DNA of 64,000 bases from Nitrosopumilus sp. (GCA_965197525.1 OZ240211.1:2146165-2210164), one strand, 5' to 3'; positions 3,332 through 61,381 are shown, counted from the first letter of the stretch. Numbers and translations: made by a program. Notes: generated by a model from the letters alone, not told the origin.

Positions 3332-3458
3332 TGGTCCCAAGCGAAGGAATTGAACCTTCGACAACCCGGTTTCTGTATGCCTGATATGCTGCTTTACAGT
3401 CAGCCATCTAAAGCCGACAACTACAGCCGGAAGCTCTACCAGGCTGAGCTAGCTTGGG
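3332..3458 (-). tRNA. tRNA-Tyr(GTA) with an intron of about 50 nt in the anticodon loop and encoded CCA
   Basis: Acceptor CCCAAGC/GCTTGGG-ACCA, D-arm GCTC..GAGC, CT-GTA-G followed by the intron, T-arm GAAGG-TTCAATT-CCTTC. Confidence 0.92.
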
Positions 3459-9541: not shown

Positions 9542-9901
9542 GGTTCTGTCTAATAAATGGGAATATAGCGTAAAAATTATTTTATATAAAATCACTTTTT
9601 TAGTTTTGAAAAGAAGACAAATCATATTAGACACATTCACATTGCAGGAAAAAGAGACGGAGATAACAACAACAAGATGGGGCGTCTAAACGGTGAGATA
9701 AGAGATTGTGAAAAAGTGTTTAGAGGTCTAAAAAAGTTTGATACGCCTCTTATTGATGGCATGAAAACATATTACAATTTCACAAAGAAACACGGGTCTT
9801 TGAAAGGAAAGACACCAGCAGAAGAAGCTATTGATTCAGAATGCGAGTTTGCACAAGCAAAATTCAGAATCAAATTTAGGTCTCTATAATCCGACAGAAC
9901 C
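9542..9901 (+). mobile_element. Internally deleted IS6-like element (MITE-sized) retaining the transposase C-terminus
   Basis: Ends GGTTCTGTCTAATAA (9542) and TAATCCGACAGAACC (9887-9901); fragment DNNNKMGRLNGEIRD..YYNF..HGSLKGKTPAE; no TSD seen. Confidence 0.7.
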
Positions 9902-21644: not shown

Positions 21645-22253
21645 TTAGTATTATTATACTGCTTTGATTAATATAGTTTTGCACTAATTTGAGACTAAAT
21701 ATTAGATAATTTGAACAAAATATGAAATTCATCTACATGAATTACGGCTGATTTCCTACAGAAATTCTGCAGTATATGAAAAATAATTCCATCACGATTC
21801 GGCGATCTGTGCGCTGGTCATATTGCCTTCCCTCTTCTTTCTGACTACTCAGTTTATTTTGGATTCGTCCAGCTTTTCATGACGCGGATACGGTGTTGTT
21901 TTATATGCCTCTACTGTTCTGCACGACACAACCATCCGCGTATCTTCATTCCAGCTCTGCACCACAAGTCAGTCATGGCACGTTCCTTCTACGGTATATG
22001 ATGGGTGTATGCTATTTTTCGAACTATAGAGCCAACTGTAATCTACGCAAAGATAACACACCATCCATTTTCATACATACCTAAGCATGAAATTCCATTC
22101 AACATCCAAGCCTGCATTGATCATCAAACAAATAAAATGCCATGAAAAACAGTATACAATCTATTATGGCCTTGTTTTTTTAAGTGTCTTACACATGGAG
22201 CGTCTGGCACCGTGTCCGCAAGCTGCGTAGACGTCCTGTCAGTCCTACAAGCA

Positions 22254-22340
22254 GTTGACGTCATTCTGTCCTGTTGACACCGCCATCGTTGGCGTAATGG
22301 AACCTAAAAAGGAACTATACTGATGCGAGTCCGGTCGGGT
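22254..22340 (+). repeat. att-like end motif copy A followed by a tRNA-Arg tail mimic
   Basis: GGAACCTAAAAA at 22299; CGAGTCCGGTCGGGT at 22326-22340 matches tRNA 15498-15512 at 14/15. Confidence 0.75.
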
Positions 22341-22379
22341 GCAAGCTAGGCAATATTCCCATTCACGCTTCGTGTGATT

Positions 22380-22724
22380 CCCCCACTAGGTTGTTGATAG
22401 CATGTTAACCCCCGTCCATCCGCCAAGCGCGGCAGATTGGTCCCTGGCCAAACATGATCGAAAAAACCTTTAGAATGATTGGGACTATCCGAGCTGCCGT
22501 GTGACTGAGTTTGATGGATCTTGCATCTTCCAGCCCCTGCAGGCACCTGTACAGCAGCAGCCCGTCATCGATTTTACCACCATCAGGGACGCAAACAGCG
22601 ACTCGGCGTACTGGAACGGCGCACCCGCCTTGTTCCTGTTTGCGGCCTCCTCCTCGCGCTTTTGAGGATCGCCTCCGATGATCAATGCCTGGCAGCTCTT
22701 GGCGTATTTTTCGTTGTCAGTCAT
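22380..22724 (-). pseudogene. IS5-family-like transposase remnant
   Basis: N-terminus with NRNKAGAPFQYAESL, then frameshifts. Confidence 0.5.
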
Positions 22725-22927
22725 CTACAATCTGTGTCTGATTTACTGATCCTTAGCTTTTTCGGTCTCGAGGAAGGCAGAATATTCATGGTAGTGCTAA
22801 GATGAATAATGCAACAAACTAGGACTGCCGGTGGCAGCTGCCTTGAAACGAATGCAGGCAGTTCGGGAAAATTCCAAATCCGAAGGGGCGTCAAATTATT
22901 TAAATGTATGAATGCCGCTAAAAAATA

Positions 22928-23614
22928 GTGCAAAAGGATAGGCTGTCTGAATGGTTTGTGCCCAAGTTCGGCTCTAGGAATTTTCGGCTATCAATAGGAA
23001 TCCTGTTTCTGCCCTACACCGGAATGGTGGTATCCTTTACCGTGTGGGGCTCCCTCTCGGTGGACTTCAGTCTTGACAGGCTGGCGTCAGCCTGCCTGCT
23101 CTATTTCCTTGCAATTGGGATATCCGCACACTGTCTTGACGCACTAGGAAGCAAAAAAAAGCCTTGGGGACGCATATCGCCATCAAAGCTCTGGCTAGTA
23201 TCGACAGTTTCCCTGACTGCCTCCCTTTCCATCGGGCTGTACTATGCATTTTTGGATTCCTGGCTGCTGTTCCCGATAGGTGCCATCGAGGTGTTCTTTC
23301 TTTTGGCGTATAACTTGGAGCTGTTTCGCGGCAAATTCCACAACAACGCGTCGTTCGTCATATCCTGGGGGGTCCTGCCAGTTTTTGCCGGCGCCTCAAT
23401 CCAGTCAAACGCCGTATCAGTCGAGACCGTAGTGCTTTCTGCGATTGCGGGACTTGCAAGCTATGTCCACATAACCACGTCCAGAAAATACAAGGAGCTG
23501 AAGCGTCAGAACGTAGGCCGCGGGTCGTACTACAGAAAGGAGGCAGTTCTCAAGGTGACAAGCCTGGCGGTGATATCTGGCACGGCCTGCTTTTTCATCT
23601 TACGATATCTTTAA
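22928..23614 (+). CDS. UbiA-like prenyltransferase-family membrane protein
   Basis: Multi-TM protein with ISAHCLDAL and LAYNLELF..KFH motifs. Confidence 0.6.
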   Translation: MQKDRLSEWFVPKFGSRNFRLSIGILFLPYTGMVVSFTVWGSLSVDFSLDRLASACLLYFLAIGISAHCLDALGSKKKPWGRISPSKLWLVSTVSLTASLSIGLYYAFLDSWLLFPIGAIEVFFLLAYNLELFRGKFHNNASFVISWGVLPVFAGASIQSNAVSVETVVLSAIAGLASYVHITTSRKYKELKRQNVGRGSYYRKEAVLKVTSLAVISGTACFFILRYL

Positions 23615-23623
23615 TTCGTGTAA

Positions 23624-24076
23624 ATGGGATACCATTGTATGAAGTCAGGTTCCGATATGCTTCTGGCCAGGATACTGGACGCCCCCGTGGGCCAGGTGGT
23701 CACCGTCCTAGGGGAGGTCCTTGACTGTGCTGTCCAGCTGCAGGTGGTGGAGCAGAACGCCGTTGCGCCCAATCAGTTCGTAAGGAAGGTCGTGATTACC
23801 GCGCGGGGGCTGCCTGTCATAAAGGCAAGCGTGAAGTTTGACTCCGCCGTGCTGCCTGAGTCCGTCATGGGCGAGCTTCTGAGGAAGAAGCGCGGCATCG
23901 GAACCATTCTCAACGTCAATGACATCGTCGCAACCAGAAGGATCATGTCCCTGGACCTGCATCCGGACCAAGGCATAACCTTGAGGGAGTACGAACTCGT
24001 TCACGGTGGGGCCGTGTGGTTTACCATATTTGAGGAGATAAACCTAGACAGTCTTGGTTCCGACAAGCACGGCTGA
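23624..24076 (+). CDS. Chorismate pyruvate-lyase/UTRA-fold-like protein
   Basis: R.VVI..GLPVI.A.V.F..GIG.IL..REY..I.EEI pattern. Confidence 0.55.
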   Translation: MGYHCMKSGSDMLLARILDAPVGQVVTVLGEVLDCAVQLQVVEQNAVAPNQFVRKVVITARGLPVIKASVKFDSAVLPESVMGELLRKKRGIGTILNVNDIVATRRIMSLDLHPDQGITLREYELVHGGAVWFTIFEEINLDSLGSDKHG

Positions 24077-24727
24077 AGAGCCCCACGTCAGATCCTGCCT
24101 GCGGGTTTCCAGTCCGTGATCTTCCATGGCCTCCTCGTACTCCTGCACCCAGTTTGAGGCCCTTATCAGGCGGGGCAGGTCGGCGAAGACCTGTCTCCAA
24201 CCTGGGGTGAAAAGGCCCGCGAGATTCAGCAGCCTGAAATAAAAATCCCACATTCTGCGCACCGGGCCGGCCTTTGGATATGTAAAGTCATGCAGAATTA
24301 TCTTCCCGCCGGCATCGAGGTGGTCAAGGCAGCTCCTGATCAGGGTATCTGGCGTGCAGTATTTTGGCAGGTATGACGCAGTGATGCAGGAGAACTTTTC
24401 CCCTAGGCTGAGCTTTTCGGCATCCTGATTTACAAAGGAGATGTTCCGGTGCGGGGCCGACTTCTCCATGGCCTTCTCAAGGTACCCTTGGGTAACGTCG
24501 ACGCCCACTATCTCCGCGTCCGGCAGCGTTTTTGCAATCTGTCTCGTAAGGATGCCCGTACCGCAGGCAAGATCCAACACGTTTTTTTCATCAGACATGT
24601 GCTCCAGAATCTTACGTTTCCAAAGGCCGTCCTTGCCAAAGGTGGTCCAGCTGACTATCCTGTCATACGAGCTGGCGTTGCTGTTAAAAAATTTCGGGAC
24701 CATGCACTTCGGACTCTCTTCGGCCAT
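24044..24727 (-). CDS. UbiE/MenG-like class I methyltransferase
   Basis: FFNSNASSYDRI..W..VLDLACGTG..GGKIILHDF. Confidence 0.85.
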   Translation of the reverse strand: MAEESPKCMVPKFFNSNASSYDRIVSWTTFGKDGLWKRKILEHMSDEKNVLDLACGTGILTRQIAKTLPDAEIVGVDVTQGYLEKAMEKSAPHRNISFVNQDAEKLSLGEKFSCITASYLPKYCTPDTLIRSCLDHLDAGGKIILHDFTYPKAGPVRRMWDFYFRLLNLAGLFTPGWRQVFADLPRLIRASNWVQEYEEAMEDHGLETRRQDLTWGSSAVLVGTKTV

Positions 24728-24791
24728 GCTTACTGCTGGTTTTTTTGTCTAAAATAGTTTGTGAGTAGGGGTTCTGTGAAGTTATCGAGGG

Positions 24792-25985
24792 TTAACCCCT
24801 ATAACTTGACTTTGACATATCGACTATTCGGATTACCAATGGTGTGCCGGGTTCCGTCATCGCTGGCTCAAAAGTGCCAGACTGCGCTTCATCTATGTCA
24901 TCTCTACTACCCCTAAACCTAGGGGGCAGCTTGCGTGATATGTTCATGGCAGCGATAATATCCCTGTCCATAAACAAACCGCAATTATTACACGACATTT
25001 TACGATGTTGTTGCATGTCCTCTTGGAGTCTCTTTCCGCATTTCGGACACTGCGTGCTCGTGTTTCTTGGGTCTACTGTCTCGACTGGAGGCAACCCGAC
25101 CCATTGGGCTTTGTATTCTATTTGGCGTTGTAACTCGTAGAATTGCCACCCGTTCAATCTACGCCTGTACTTGTTACCTTGACTGTTTCCTTTTCGGTAC
25201 AATTTTCTTATTCCTTTCAGGTTTTCCATGACGATTGCAGTCTTGTTTTTGACTGCGTTGTCTACTATATCCTTTGAGATTCTGTGGATGTACTGCTTTG
25301 TTCTATTGCTCATTCGTCTCTGTCTTTGTTTCCAGAATTGACCTTTCTTTCTGCGATCATTTCTGTGGAATCCTGCCCTAGCGTGTATTGTGTTCTCCTT
25401 TATGGATAACAGTTTGTTTGTCTTGTAGACTGTCACCTCTTTCTCGTTCCCACACGTCACATTTCTTAGGTTTCTGTCTATTCCCACTTGATTGGTGCAC
25501 TCTATCTCTTGTACTGTTTTTGAAACACAAAGACTGATGTTGAGAGCAGTCAATGAAAACGAGCGCACCGTCAAGGCGGGATCAGATAGGATTTTTTGGG
25601 TGTGAACGTTGAGTAAAATGTTGATTGGGTTATGTTTCTTGTATGGGATTGTGAGTAGTGCACCGCTGTGTTGTATACCGTAACAGTTTGTCATAAAGGG
25701 ATTTTTGACTATTGGGTCTCTTATTCTGACACCTCGTTTGATTGATTGTCTTCTGTTTGATAACATGCCTGCAGCTCGTGATATTGCATTTAGTTTGTAT
25801 GAAGACAGGATGTCATAATTACGTAATTCATGATAACATAATATGGACAACCTCTTCATATTGTGAGTGTCTTCTTTCAATCCTGTCTTGATGCAATGAT
25901 TGACCATCTTTGTGAATATAGCCATCATATCCATTAGATCAGAGTTCGGCGTATATTTCTGTGATATTGACTTTATCGCTTTCAA
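24792..25985 (-). CDS. tnpB: TnpB RNA-guided endonuclease
   Basis: RuvC GIDRN, VMENL, MDRDIIAAMNI; Zn finger CPKC..CNNC; stop codon lies within the TIR. Confidence 0.95.
   Translation of the reverse strand: MKAIKSISQKYTPNSDLMDMMAIFTKMVNHCIKTGLKEDTHNMKRLSILCYHELRNYDILSSYKLNAISRAAGMLSNRRQSIKRGVRIRDPIVKNPFMTNCYGIQHSGALLTIPYKKHNPINILLNVHTQKILSDPALTVRSFSLTALNISLCVSKTVQEIECTNQVGIDRNLRNVTCGNEKEVTVYKTNKLLSIKENTIHARAGFHRNDRRKKGQFWKQRQRRMSNRTKQYIHRISKDIVDNAVKNKTAIVMENLKGIRKLYRKGNSQGNKYRRRLNGWQFYELQRQIEYKAQWVGLPPVETVDPRNTSTQCPKCGKRLQEDMQQHRKMSCNNCGLFMDRDIIAAMNISRKLPPRFRGSRDDIDEAQSGTFEPAMTEPGTPLVIRIVDMSKSSYRG
24795..24945 (-). ncRNA. Candidate omegaRNA scaffold overlapping the tnpB 3' end
   Basis: Conserved with 61135-61265; covarying hairpin CTGGC/GCCAG versus CCGGT/ACCGG. 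Confidence 0.6.
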
Positions 25986-26171
25986 CGAATATCTTACGGT
26001 TTAGAGGTTTATACAATTTAGGGATTAACAGATAACCCTCGATAACTTCACAGAACCTGAGTAGGCAACTTGGCAAACGGCAAGACCGTGCTGGAGAAAA
26101 ACACAGACTGATAAAGTGGGCGGATCCTGAGATCCCTGGAAACAGAGGCAGGATCACACCCCATAGTGAAA

Positions 26172-59853: not shown

Positions 59854-60024
59854 ATGCTGTATCATTTCGAACTACAAATGGCAGGCGTTATTCTTCTTAC
59901 CGCTATGGTAGTTTGTGGTATTTCAATATGGATTAGACGACGGAGAGCTGAAAATAACCCGCAAACGTCATTAAACGAACCTAGTGACCAGCCGTCATCT
60001 GATACAACTGGTTCGTTGGATTAA
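59854..60024 (+). CDS. Small membrane protein whose last codons are replaced by the TnpB element
   Basis: MLYHFELQMAGVILLTAMVVCGISIWIRRRR..DTT; the empty-site frame would end DTTNR*. Confidence 0.55.
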   Translation: MLYHFELQMAGVILLTAMVVCGISIWIRRRRAENNPQTSLNEPSDQPSSDTTGSLD

Positions 60025-61340
60025 CTGGTGTTAATCAGAAATTATACTCATAACACTAAATATAGATAGCCTTAAACCGTATAATACTTGTTGAGAGCAA
60101 TAAAGTCAATAGCACAAAAACATACACCAAACTCTGACCTAATGGACATGATGATCACGTTCACAGACATGGTTAACCGTTGTATCAAGATAGGGCTAAA
60201 GGAAGATACCCACAACATGAAACGGTTGTCTATGTTATGCTATCACGAATTACGTCACTACGACATCCTATCTTCATACAAACTCAATGCAATATCACGA
60301 GCTGCTGGCATCCTGGCAAACAGAGATCAGTCAGTCAAACGTGGCCTCAAAGTAAAAGATCCAATTATCAAAAATCCGTTTATCACTAATTGTTACCGTA
60401 TAAAACACAACGGCGCCTTACTCACAATTCCATACAAGCCAAGAAATCCAATTAACATCCTACTCGACGAACATACTCAAAAAATACTGTCTGATCCCGC
60501 CTTGGCAGTGCGCTCGTTTTCATTGACTGCTCTCAACATCAGTCTTTGTATTTCAAAAAAAGTACAGGAGATAGAGTGCGCCAAGACAGTAGGAGTAGAC
60601 AGAAACCTTAGAAACGTCACATGCGGAAATGAAGAAGAGGTAACATTCTACAAAACCAACAAGTTACTCTCAATCAAAGAGAACACAATACATGCCAGAT
60701 CTGGTTTCCGTAGAAACGACAAAAGAAAGAAAGGTCAATTCTACAACGAAAAACAGAGAAGAATGTCAAACAGAACAAAACAGTACATACACAGAATCTC
60801 AAAAAACATAGTAGACAATGCAGTCAAGAAAAAGGCTGTCATTGTTCTAGAAAATCTAAAGGGAATTAGAAAACTGTACAGAAAAGGAAACGGTCAAGGC
60901 AACAAATACAGACGTAGATTGAACGGATGGCAATTCTTTGAACTACAAAGACAAATAGAATACAAAGCCCAATGGGTCGGGCTACCTGTAAAAACAGTAG
61001 ACCCAAAAAACACGAGCACGCAGTGTCCGCAATGCGGAAAGAGACTCCAAGAGGACATGCAACAACATCGTAAATCATCGTGTAATAATTGCGGTTTATT
61101 TATGGACAGGGATATCATCGCTGCCATGAACATATCACGCAAACTGTCTCCTAGGTTTAGAGATAGTAGAGATGGCATACATGAAGCGCAGTCCGGTGTT
61201 TTTGAACCGGCGATGGCGGAACCCTGCAGACCGGTAATCCGAATAGTCGATATGTCAAAGTCGAGTAGTCAATGTGTTGTTGATGGTTGTGGAATCTGAC
61301 ATGATCCTCCGCAGTCAACACCCGCTAACCCAACAGAACC
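60010..61340 (+). mobile_element. Second TnpB-only element with TIRs of about 15 bp and an 8-bp TSD
   Basis: GGTTC-GTTGGATTA at 60010-60023 versus TAACCCAACAGAACC at 61326-61340; ATACAACT at 60002-60009 and 61341-61348. Confidence 0.9.
60088..61299 (+). CDS. tnpB: TnpB RNA-guided endonuclease, paralog of 24792-25985
   Basis: GVDRN, VLENL, MDRDIIAAMNI; CPQC..CNNC. Confidence 0.95.
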   Translation: MLRAIKSIAQKHTPNSDLMDMMITFTDMVNRCIKIGLKEDTHNMKRLSMLCYHELRHYDILSSYKLNAISRAAGILANRDQSVKRGLKVKDPIIKNPFITNCYRIKHNGALLTIPYKPRNPINILLDEHTQKILSDPALAVRSFSLTALNISLCISKKVQEIECAKTVGVDRNLRNVTCGNEEEVTFYKTNKLLSIKENTIHARSGFRRNDKRKKGQFYNEKQRRMSNRTKQYIHRISKNIVDNAVKKKAVIVLENLKGIRKLYRKGNGQGNKYRRRLNGWQFFELQRQIEYKAQWVGLPVKTVDPKNTSTQCPQCGKRLQEDMQQHRKSSCNNCGLFMDRDIIAAMNISRKLSPRFRDSRDGIHEAQSGVFEPAMAEPCRPVIRIVDMSKSSSQCVVDGCGI

Positions 61341-61381
61341 ATACAACTAATAGATAAAATACTTGATGATTCGTATATTAT

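What the first reader, a model, noticed from the sequence alone, without database searches (positions are those of the whole stretch)
24770..24945. omegaRNA with covarying stem; the guide may be fixed inside the element
The 3' regions of both tnpB copies are conserved up to GATATGTCAAAGTC and share a hairpin with two compensatory changes (CTGGC/GCCAG at 24863-24880; CCGGT/ACCGG at 61193-61210). They then diverge before the TIR. If the scaffold ends there, the guide is internal and constant rather than taken from flanking DNA; in element 1 it would run into the TIR itself. TnpB could then target IS6-type ends or uninterrupted MITEs (homing into, or policing, the helper transposon) or act as a regulator. 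This last part is inference.
Basis: partly seen in the sequence, partly recalled or inferred. Interest (0 to 1): 0.72.

Follow-up and report, generated by a model that had tools for sequence, protein, structure and literature searches.

The report
TnpB guide RNA inside IS6-like transposon
The conserved, covarying RNA at the end of both tnpB genes is a real guide-RNA scaffold, but the guide is most likely taken from the DNA just beyond the transposon's inverted-repeat end and is not fixed inside the element; the repeat seems to be folded away in a hairpin, as in eukaryotic Fanzor elements.

Summary
Both tnpB copies are conserved up to GATATGTCAAAGTC. The CTGGC/GCCAG versus CCGGT/ACCGG hairpin covaries and belongs to a ~125-nt omegaRNA scaffold present 51 times in this 2.2-Mb sponge-associated Nitrosopumilus-type genome.

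The fixed internal guide is not supported.
- The elements are IS6-like: GGTTCTGT inverted repeats, 8-bp target duplications, and a DDE transposase encoded elsewhere.
- The 36-102 nt between scaffold and end folds into a hairpin that pairs an internal segment with the inner right repeat. That segment has indels at its start among near-identical copies and no target in the genome.
- A T-purine (mostly TTR) lies directly 5' of the left duplication in 25/25 copies with perfect duplications here. It is also there in 11/11 close copies from three other assemblies and 11/12 distant relatives.
- Transposase-carrying IS6 copies show it in only 1 of 14 orientations.

That is where a TAM must lie if the guide is the duplication plus the right flank. 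I therefore read the RNA as running through the hairpinned repeat into the flank (about 0.68; no RNA ends were mapped).

This is a new variant of a known kind (DDE-associated TnpBs, Fanzor reRNAs). Earlier agents of this scan had already noted the IS6-like ends and TTR on other windows of this genome.

The parts
26066..26068 (-). Copy 1: candidate TAM (TTG on the tnpB strand), directly 5' of the left target-site duplication
   Evidence: Read from the sequence. W-T-R at this position in 25/25 elements with perfect TSD.
26058..26065 (-). Copy 1: left 8-bp target-site duplication (CCTACTCA on the tnpB strand)
   Evidence: Identical 8-mer at 24762-24769.
26033..26057 (-). Copy 1: left IS6-type TIR (GGTTCTGTGAAGTTATCGAGGGTTA)
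   Evidence: Inverted repeat of 24770-24794. Subfamily identity ends here.
24792..25985 (-). Copy 1: tnpB ORF (397 aa), RuvC D-E-D and zinc ribbon present
   Evidence: Pfam Cas12f1-like_TNB 4.9e-21. NCBIfam guided_TnpB 127.6 bits, above cut-off. Catalytic E and D motifs align to solved TnpB/Cas12f chains.
24907..24929 (-). Copy 1: scaffold hairpin A. Its loop AGGUUU (24915-24920) is invariant across the family and complementary to the element's last 5 nt (GAACC)
   Evidence: Consensus fold and covarying stem. Loop invariant in 45/48 own copies and 10/12 distant relatives. Duplex with the terminus predicted.
24863..24880 (-).
   Evidence: Compensatory changes at all five pairs. Absent from distant relatives and deleted in one MITE copy.
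24829..24856 (-). Copy 1: scaffold hairpin C (CGGAACC...GGUAAUCCG)
   Evidence: Consensus fold. The closing pair is C-G in 8 and U-A in 8 of 16 sequences.
24808..24821 (-). Copy 1: invariant end of the conserved core (GAUAUGUCAAAGUC). UAUGUCA pairs with UGACAUA at 24894-24900 (closing stem)
   Evidence: The closing stem covaries across the family.
24779..24807 (-). Copy 1: 3' hairpin. An internal partial copy of the TIR pairs with the inner part of the right TIR
   Evidence: Predicted in all subfamilies. More stable than the mirrored left end in 20/21.
24770..24778 (-). Copy 1: unpaired terminal 9 nt of the right TIR (CACAGAACC), the proposed last scaffold nucleotides before the guide
24750..24769 (-). 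Copy 1: predicted guide template = right TSD copy plus flank (CCTACTCACAAACTATTTTA)
   Evidence: Inference from the TAM position. The same flank with a single TSD copy occurs in relatives G129 and G076.
59999..60009 (+). Copy 2: candidate TAM (CTG, 59999-60001) plus left TSD (ATACAACT, 60002-60009)
60010..61340 (+). Copy 2: whole IS6-like element. The left TIR is degenerate in this copy; tnpB ORF 60088-61299
   Evidence: Five sister copies 97-99% identical from end to end. Relatives G159, G212 and G411 lack the element at this site.
61144..61262 (+). Copy 2: omegaRNA scaffold (hairpin A 61144-61166, hairpin B 61193-61210, hairpin C 61217-61241, core end 61249-61262)
61263..61340 (+). Copy 2: 78-nt subfamily-specific tail ending in the right TIR (...CAACAGAACC)
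61341..61360 (+). Copy 2: predicted guide template = right TSD copy plus flank (ATACAACTAATAGATAAAAT)
   Evidence: Inference from the TAM position.

Best explanation
Each tnpB copy is the only gene of a non-autonomous IS6-like transposon with 25-30 bp TIRs starting GGTTCTGT and an 8-bp target duplication. A DDE (IS240/IS6-type) transposase encoded elsewhere in the genome presumably moves it. The omegaRNA is transcribed from the 3' end of tnpB. It has a conserved core of about 125 nt: hairpins A, B and C and a closing stem ending ...UAUGUCAAAGUC. I propose that the RNA does not stop there. It continues through a variable hairpin in which an internal partial TIR copy pairs with, and so tucks away, the inner right TIR. 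It then runs through the last ~9 nt of the TIR (CACAGAACC) into the flank. The guide is then the right copy of the target duplication plus the next ~8-12 nt, so it differs for every copy. The TAM is the T-purine (usually TTR) that lies directly 5' of the duplication in the unoccupied site. The occupied site escapes cutting. At the left junction only 8 nt match, and at the right junction ACC stands in the TAM position. TnpB would then cut unoccupied alleles and favour retention or copying of the element by homologous repair, as shown for IS605 TnpB. Shown here: element anatomy, scaffold covariation, hairpin, TSDs, flank motif, intact catalytic residues. Inferred: the RNA 3' end, that the motif is a TAM, and homing.
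For: (1) TIR-to-TIR identity within subfamilies and perfect 8-bp TSDs in 25 elements. (2) Three IS6-like transposase-bearing copies (two complete, one truncated) whose first 18 TIR nt are identical to those of one tnpB subfamily. (3) Left flank: T at -10 in 25/25, purine at -9 in 25/25, A/T at -11 in 25/25. Nothing comparable on the right flank. Background frequency of NTR is 0.145, so 25/25 has p about 1e-21. (4) The same motif occurs in 11/11 close copies from three other assemblies and in 11/12 relatives at 41-65% protein identity in other genera. It is also present in all 4 omegaRNA-only miniature copies with perfect TSDs. (5) Seven complete transposase-bearing IS6 copies with perfect TSDs show NTR in 1 of 14 orientations, against 2 expected by chance. 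The motif therefore goes with the omegaRNA and not with the transposase. (6) The strand and position are those required for a TnpB TAM if the guide starts at the first base after the right TIR. (7) The tail folds as a TIR-sequestering hairpin in all 15 subfamilies. It is specific to the omegaRNA end (20/21, mean -11.8 vs -6.0 kcal/mol) and more stable on the sense strand in 11/15. (8) Precedent: in Fanzor1 and Fanzor2* the TIR and TSD are predicted parts of the reRNA scaffold, and small-RNA reads run ~15 nt beyond the TSD (PMC10711439). Six DDE-associated prokaryotic TnpB branches with inverted ends are on record (PMC10691335). (9) The invariant hairpin-A loop GGUUU is complementary to the terminal GAACC. 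This would be a pseudoknot directly before the guide, as in ISXfa1 (U-130:A-3, PMC10711439). (10) Catalytic D-E-D intact.
Against: No RNA end has been mapped. The only RNA-library data are assembled contigs, which cannot show ends or strand. A 36-102 nt insertion between the conserved core and the guide has no experimentally shown precedent in prokaryotic TnpB. The hairpin is imperfect, and its mismatches are not clearly biased to G-U (23 G-U vs 15 A-C vs 50 transversions), so selection at the RNA level is only weakly shown. The motif is short (2-3 nt), and its role as a TAM is inferred. Loop A also lies in coding sequence (Arg-Phe) and has a second possible partner (internal GGAACC). It is unexplained how every surviving insertion has the motif when the transposase shows no such preference.
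Confidence: 0.68

Rival explanations
1. One reading: the scaffold ends at ...AAAGUC and the next 16-20 nt inside the element are a fixed guide. It would direct TnpB to IS6-type ends, to uninterrupted MITEs or to a regulatory site.
For: The conserved core does end at AAAGUC in all 51 copies and in relatives (AAGUY). In canonical TnpB the guide follows the core directly. The next nucleotides resemble the subfamily's own TIR, and in subfamily 1 that TIR stretch is preceded by GTG, an N-T-R. One viral contig has an exact 18-nt match preceded by TTA.
Against: The resemblance to the TIR is what a hairpin arm requires, and it is too poor for targeting: 3 mismatches in 16 for subfamily 1 and worse for the others. 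In subfamilies 2 and 4 the TIR stretch is preceded by GTT, not T-R. The would-be seed has indels and an A/G polymorphism at position 1 among 94-99% identical copies. No genome target has fewer than 2 mismatches. Three of four segments have no viral match, and one 18-mer hit is about what chance gives in a collection of 2.9 million contigs. This reading leaves the orientation-locked flank motif unexplained.
Confidence: 0.1
2. The RNA ends at or before the tail hairpin, which would act as a stabiliser, a terminator or a DNA-level transposase site. The flank motif is then not a TAM for a flank guide. It would reflect target choice at integration, for example TnpB protein bound at the element end recognising T-R in the target and positioning the IS6 transpososome 0 nt downstream.
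For: 100% compliance with the motif, at exact spacing, is easier to get from a mechanism acting at integration than from later selection. The transposase alone shows no preference. The RNA-library contig ends exactly at the element terminus.
Against: No precedent for TnpB taking part in DDE target capture. Contigs of a multicopy repeat break at the repeat boundary for assembly reasons. The miniature copies without tnpB keep both scaffold and motif, which fits an RNA-borne function. Abundant subfamilies have no oligo-T run in the tail.
Confidence: 0.15
3. The scaffold is a relic: the elements spread only as IS6 passengers, and TnpB and its RNA are no longer functional.
For: Some copies carry stops or truncations. 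Copy 2 has a degenerate left TIR.
Against: Most ORFs are intact, with D-E-D present. The scaffold pairs are kept by compensatory changes across subfamilies and genera. The flank motif is maintained.
Confidence: 0.04

Closest known systems
DDE-transposase-associated TnpB branches (DDE-1 to DDE-6) and solo TnpBs with matching ends (Altae-Tran et al. 2023, PMC10691335)
   Same: Prokaryotic TnpB inside elements with inverted terminal repeats. The TnpB 3' end lies within 250 bp of the element end. Solo TnpB copies share ends with transposase-bearing elements.
   Different: The main text of that paper names IS630 and a 2026 review (PMC13565253) adds ISL2 and IS1031; IS6 is not mentioned there. I could not place this protein in their branches. 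Here the helper is IS6-like, the TSD is a variable 8-mer that becomes the start of the guide, and the TAM-like motif is not a preference of the transposase.
Fanzor1 / Fanzor2* reRNAs in eukaryotic TIR transposons (Yoon et al. 2023, PMC10711439)
   Same: The guide RNA runs through the right TIR. The TIR is paired within the scaffold and the guide comes from beyond the element.
   Different: There the TSD is short and fixed and counts as scaffold; here it is variable and should be guide. Fanzor1 has lost the pseudoknot, whereas this family keeps an invariant loop that could pair with the TIR terminus. This one is archaeal.
IS200/IS605 IS1341-type tnpB-only elements and their omegaRNA-bearing miniature derivatives (PATEs)
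   Same: TnpB with a 3' overlapping omegaRNA, many copies, and protein-less derivatives that keep the RNA.
   Different: Those have no TIRs and no TSDs, and insert 3' of a TnpA-specified motif. This element has TIRs and 8-bp TSDs.
TldR, nuclease-dead TnpB derivatives with fixed guides (PMC10705468)
   Different: TldRs are catalytically dead and immobile. Here D-E-D is intact and the element is mobile and multicopy.
IS6/IS26 family insertion sequences and their MITEs (PMC6807381)
   Same: GG-initiated TIRs, 8-bp TSDs, DDE transposase with an IS240-type domain, internal-deletion derivatives.
   Different: The cargo is an RNA-guided nuclease. The transposase scores below NCBIfam's IS6 equivalog cut-off (102.8 vs 125 bits), so I call it IS6-like.

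Membership tests
TnpB-omegaRNA (OMEGA) system | TnpB protein with RuvC D-E-D triad and zinc ribbon | tested here: met
   Pfam PF07282. NCBIfam NF040570 at 127.6 bits, above the cut-off of 100. ENL and DRD motifs align to catalytic motifs of solved TnpB/Cas12f chains; GIDRN upstream.
TnpB-omegaRNA (OMEGA) system | Structured RNA scaffold overlapping the 3' end of tnpB | tested here: met
   32-pair consensus, 9 pairs with compensatory changes. Stems covary across genera. 51 copies.
TnpB-omegaRNA (OMEGA) system | Guide taken from DNA flanking the right end | tested here: inconclusive
   Indirect support from the flank motif. RNA contigs cannot show ends.
TnpB-omegaRNA (OMEGA) system | TAM immediately 5' of the target in the unoccupied site | tested here: met
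   W-T-R directly 5' of the TSD in 25/25. Absent from transposase-bearing IS6 copies. Its function as a TAM is not tested.
TnpB-omegaRNA (OMEGA) system | RNA-guided DNA cleavage | not testable with these tools
   Needs biochemistry or an interference assay.
IS200/IS605 family (IS1341 group) | No TIRs, no TSDs, subterminal hairpins, Y1 TnpA partner | tested here: not met
   25-30 bp TIRs and perfect 8-bp TSDs.
IS6-family non-autonomous element | TIRs shared with a DDE (IS240-domain) transposase-bearing element in the same genome | tested here: met
   The first 18 TIR nt are identical between the IS6-like element at genome 746475-748444 and one tnpB subfamily.
IS6-family non-autonomous element | 8-bp target-site duplication | tested here: met
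   25 elements here, and others in relatives.
IS6-family non-autonomous element | Transposase reaches the curated IS6 family threshold | tested here: not met
   NF033587 gives 102.8 bits against a cut-off of 125. Pfam DDE_Tnp_IS240 is above its cut-off. Hence 'IS6-like'.
TldR-type domesticated TnpB with fixed guide | Inactivated nuclease, immobile single locus, guide matching a host promoter | tested here: not met
   D-E-D intact. About 51 mobile copies. No target for the internal segment.
Fanzor-type reRNA architecture | TIR base-paired within the scaffold, guide beyond the element | tested here: inconclusive
   The TIR-pairing hairpin is predicted in all subfamilies and is specific to this end. 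The RNA extent is not mapped.

The most novel reading that the evidence does not exclude
TnpB acts as an obligatory filter or partner for IS6-type transposition. The helper transposase inserts without sequence preference, yet every surviving tnpB- or omegaRNA-bearing copy sits exactly 0 nt downstream of a T-purine TAM. Either RNA-guided restorative homing is so decisive in these archaea that insertions without a TAM are lost quickly, or TnpB bound at the element end takes part in choosing the target. On this reading the IS6 TIR terminus (GAACC in the RNA) has been recruited as the 3' strand of the omegaRNA pseudoknot.
Probability: 0.3. Interest if true: 0.8.

Novelty: new variant of a known kind. 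Interest (0 to 1): 0.6.

Why it matters
It is a prokaryotic (archaeal) counterpart of the Fanzor solution to a general problem: how an RNA-guided nuclease that reads its guide from the transposon flank can ride a TIR/TSD transposon.

It also offers a natural experiment. The transposase has no target preference, but the cargo-bearing copies show a strict TAM-like motif. The insertion landscape may therefore record TnpB activity in vivo. That makes the homing or retention model testable for DDE transposons, where reviews have argued it should bring little benefit (PMC13565253).

In practical terms it predicts the scaffold, guide position and TAM (TTR/NTR) of a compact 397-aa TnpB from a mesophilic archaeon.

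Tried and rejected
- **RNA evidence.** One search for runs and one lay of contigs from four sponge metatranscriptome runs. Only assembled contigs were served. The neighbouring methyltransferase gene is covered. One 195-nt contig (run X3, depth 2.5) covers 24770-24962, from the element terminus through the tail and ~155 nt of scaffold. Contigs of a repeat break at its boundary, so this shows neither read-through nor an RNA end.
- **Rfam.** At gathering thresholds there were only two tRNAs and no omegaRNA family hit.
- **Genome search for internal 'guide' targets.** Seven subfamilies, 16-mers, up to 3 mismatches: only chance-level hits and the own left TIR at 3 mismatches.
Of four internal segments, three had no hit. 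One had a single exact 18-nt hit preceded by TTA in a terminase-bearing contig of unknown host (L112). I judged this to be about chance.
- **G-U versus A-C mismatch test for RNA-level selection on the tail hairpin.** Weak: 23 vs 15, with 50 transversions.
- **Arm-swap permutation test for arm covariation.** Only p = 0.019, because the outer arm positions are shared among subfamilies.
- **Clean empty site for copy 1.** Relatives G129 and G076 share the right flank and a single TSD copy at 98% identity but differ beyond the TAM side. Copy 2 does have empty sites in G159, G212 and G411, at only ~74% identity.
- **Independent-capture idea.** I considered that the conserved cassette is itself an IS1341-type element captured independently by different MITEs. 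Homology at the left side decays gradually and no cassette-free MITE of matching ends was found, so I set this aside.
- **L080.** A hit that suggested an IS6 copy carrying an omegaRNA was spurious.

Full report
**What is there**

The window holds two tnpB genes: copy 1 on the minus strand (ORF 24792-25985) and copy 2 on the plus strand (ORF 60088-61299).
- Both are TnpB by Pfam and NCBIfam.
- They keep the RuvC motifs GIDRN, MENL and DRD and the CxxC...CxxC ribbon.
- They align at 86% mean column identity, from about 70 nt upstream of the ORF to GATATGTCAAAGTC, and then diverge.

**The element**

The window lies in a single-contig 2.21-Mb genome with 39.6% G+C. The closest records found are Nitrosopumilus MAGs, and the runs that hold the sequence are sponge metagenomes and metatranscriptomes.
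- BLAST finds about 35 full-length and about 15 short copies in ten or more subfamilies. Within a subfamily, identity runs from one inverted repeat to the other: 24770-26057 for copy 1 and 60010-61340 for copy 2.
- All copies end in ...ACAGAACC, the inverse of a left end GGTTCTGT... Twenty-five have perfect 8-bp target duplications, all different.
- Three IS6-like elements carry a DDE_Tnp_IS240 transposase: two complete with their own 8-bp duplications and one truncated.
- The first 18 nt of their TIR are identical to those of one tnpB subfamily.

**The scaffold**

nhmmer with the last 200 nt before ...AAAGTC finds 51 copies. RNAalifold on 16 diverse copies gives 32 pairs, 9 of them with compensatory changes. 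The parts in copy 1 are:
- hairpin A (24907-24929);
- hairpin C (24829-24856), whose closing pair is C-G in 8 and U-A in 8 sequences;
- a closing stem, UGACAUA (24894-24900) with UAUGUCA (24813-24819).

Relatives at 41-65% protein identity in other genera of the class keep hairpin A and the closing stem with quite different sequences (GCUUCC/GGAAGC, GAUGCA/UGCAUC). They lack hairpin B, which is also deleted in one miniature copy. Hairpin B is thus real but peripheral.

**What follows the core**

The 36-102 nt between ...AAAGTC and the end fold in every one of 15 subfamilies into a hairpin. Its 5' arm starts 0-3 nt after GTC and pairs with the inner right TIR, leaving about 9 nt, (C)ACAGAACC, unpaired.
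- The mirrored left end has no such structure (mean -6.0 vs -11.8 kcal/mol; the tail is more stable in 20 of 21).
- The sense strand folds better than the antisense in 11 of 15.
- The stems are imperfect, and their mismatches are only mildly biased to G-U (23 vs 15 A-C, 50 transversions). An arm-swap test gives p = 0.019. I count the hairpin as a consistent feature, not as proven RNA-level covariation.

**Is this stretch a guide?**

If it were a common guide, its TAM-proximal part should be conserved. Instead, copies that are 94-99% identical differ there: AAGTTATAGG, AAGTTTAGG, AAGTTTATAGG, GAGTTATAGG.
- None of seven such segments has a match in the genome with fewer than 2 mismatches in 16. 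The subfamily's own left TIR matches with 3 mismatches.
- Of four segments searched in viral contigs, three have no exact match. One has a single 18-nt match preceded by TTA, in a terminase-bearing contig of unknown host. I judge one such match to be about chance for that collection.

**The flank motif**

In tnpB orientation, the three bases directly 5' of the left duplication are W-T-R in 25 of 25 elements with perfect duplications (T 19/A 6; T 25; A 12/G 13). The right flank shows nothing comparable.
- The genome-wide frequency of N-T-R is 0.145, giving about 1e-21 for 25 of 25.
- I saw the motif before consulting the scan's notes. Those notes show that other agents had reported it, and the IS6-like ends, on other windows of this genome.
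- The motif recurs in 11 of 11 close copies from three other assemblies and in 11 of 12 distant relatives with GGTTCTGT-type ends.
- It is present in all four omegaRNA-only miniature copies with perfect duplications.
- Seven complete transposase-bearing IS6-like copies with perfect duplications (two here, five in relatives) show N-T-R in 1 of 14 orientations, with 2 expected by chance.
- The motif therefore goes with the omegaRNA, not with the transposase. Its strand and position are those a TnpB TAM must have if the guide begins at the first base beyond the right TIR, that is, with the duplication itself.
- For copy 1 this gives TAM TTG (26066-26068) and guide template 24750-24769. For copy 2 it gives TAM CTG (59999-60001) and guide template 61341-61360.
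- Relatives G159, G212 and G411 lack the element at the copy 2 site. G129 and G076 carry the copy 1 right flank with a single duplication copy preceded by CTG.

**A possible pseudoknot**

The loop of hairpin A is AGGUUU in 45 of 48 copies here and in 10 of 12 distant relatives, although its stem changes completely. It is constant at synonymous positions of the Arg and Phe codons it overlaps.
- GGUUU is complementary to GAACC, the last five nucleotides of the element.
- In ISXfa1 a loop about 130 nt upstream pairs with the nucleotides just before the guide (U-130:A-3; PMC10711439).
- If the same holds here, the scaffold ends at the TIR terminus.
- This is inference. The terminus never varies, so no covariation test is possible, and an internal GGAACC in hairpin C is an alternative partner.

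**RNA data**

Only assembled contigs of sponge metatranscriptomes were available. The neighbouring gene is covered at 98% identity. One 195-nt contig covers 24770-24962, from the element terminus through the tail and about 155 nt of scaffold. Contigs break at repeat boundaries, so this decides nothing about the RNA's 3' end.

**Comparison with what is known**

- IS200/IS605 and IS607 have neither TIRs nor TSDs (PMC13565253), so these elements are not members.
- Altae-Tran et al. list six DDE-associated TnpB branches with inverted ends, and solo TnpBs with matching ends. IS6 is not named in their main text (PMC10691335).
- Yoon et al. show that in Fanzor1 and Fanzor2* the TIR and TSD are predicted parts of the reRNA scaffold, and that the RNA runs about 15 nt beyond the TSD (PMC10711439).
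- The present case works like these. It differs in three ways: the helper is IS6-like; the duplication is a variable 8-mer that should be the first part of the guide; and the TAM-like motif is not a preference of the transposase.

**Verdict**

The fixed internal guide is not. My best reading is that the guide comes from the flank beyond a hairpinned TIR (0.68). The open question worth an experiment is why every cargo-bearing copy has the motif: strong TnpB-dependent retention, or a role of TnpB in target choice.

Noticed in passing
window 24915-24920 and 61153-61158 (loop of hairpin A); element termini 24770-24774 and 61336-61340: The loop AGGUUU is invariant across the family while its stem covaries. 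GGUUU is complementary to the terminal GAACC of the IS6-type TIR, a possible pseudoknot that would place the scaffold end at the transposon end.
   Followed up: partly
window 9542-9901: A 360-bp GGTTCTGT...ACAGAACC element that keeps only the C-terminal part of an IS6-like transposase frame (an internal-deletion derivative). It has no target duplication.
   Followed up: partly
window 24000-24769 (methyltransferase gene next to copy 1); window 22001-24000 has 50% G+C: This flank is 98% identical in relatives G129 and G076, whose other shared regions are only 65-70% identical to this genome. It is G+C-rich against a 39.6% genome, so it may be a recently exchanged island. Homology stops at the TAM side of the insertion site.
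   Followed up: partly
L010 and L013 (Nitrosopumilus MAG OZ245003.1): Two copies carry each other's target-duplication halves (TAGAAACT/TTATGTTA and TTATGTTA/TAGAAACT). This is the footprint of an inversion by recombination between two element copies, and it explains many copies without matching duplications.
   Followed up: no
L112:2190-2207 (IMG/VR contig with large and small terminase genes): Exact 18-nt match to the subfamily 1 internal segment AAGTTATAGGGGTTAACC, preceded by TTA. The three other internal segments searched have no viral match, so I judged it a chance hit. It is worth a second look if the internal-guide idea is revived.
   Followed up: partly
genome 143852-144348, 803351-803738, 870887-871264, 1385894-1386101 (outside the window): Miniature copies (208-497 bp) have lost tnpB but keep TIRs, scaffold, tail, 8-bp duplications and the T-R motif. 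They may be guide-RNA-only satellites that use TnpB in trans.
   Followed up: partly
window 60010-60038: The left TIR of copy 2 is degenerate (GGTTCGTTGGATTAACTGG against GGTTCTGTTGGGTTAACGG in its sister copies), so this copy may no longer be mobile although its tnpB is intact.
   Followed up: no
genome 800010-801200 (outside the window): One subfamily 1 copy has an in-frame TAG in tnpB. Several relatives also carry stops, so decay of individual copies is ongoing.
   Followed up: no
window 3335-3458: A tRNA match 124 nt long on the minus strand, so probably an intron-containing archaeal tRNA.
   Followed up: no
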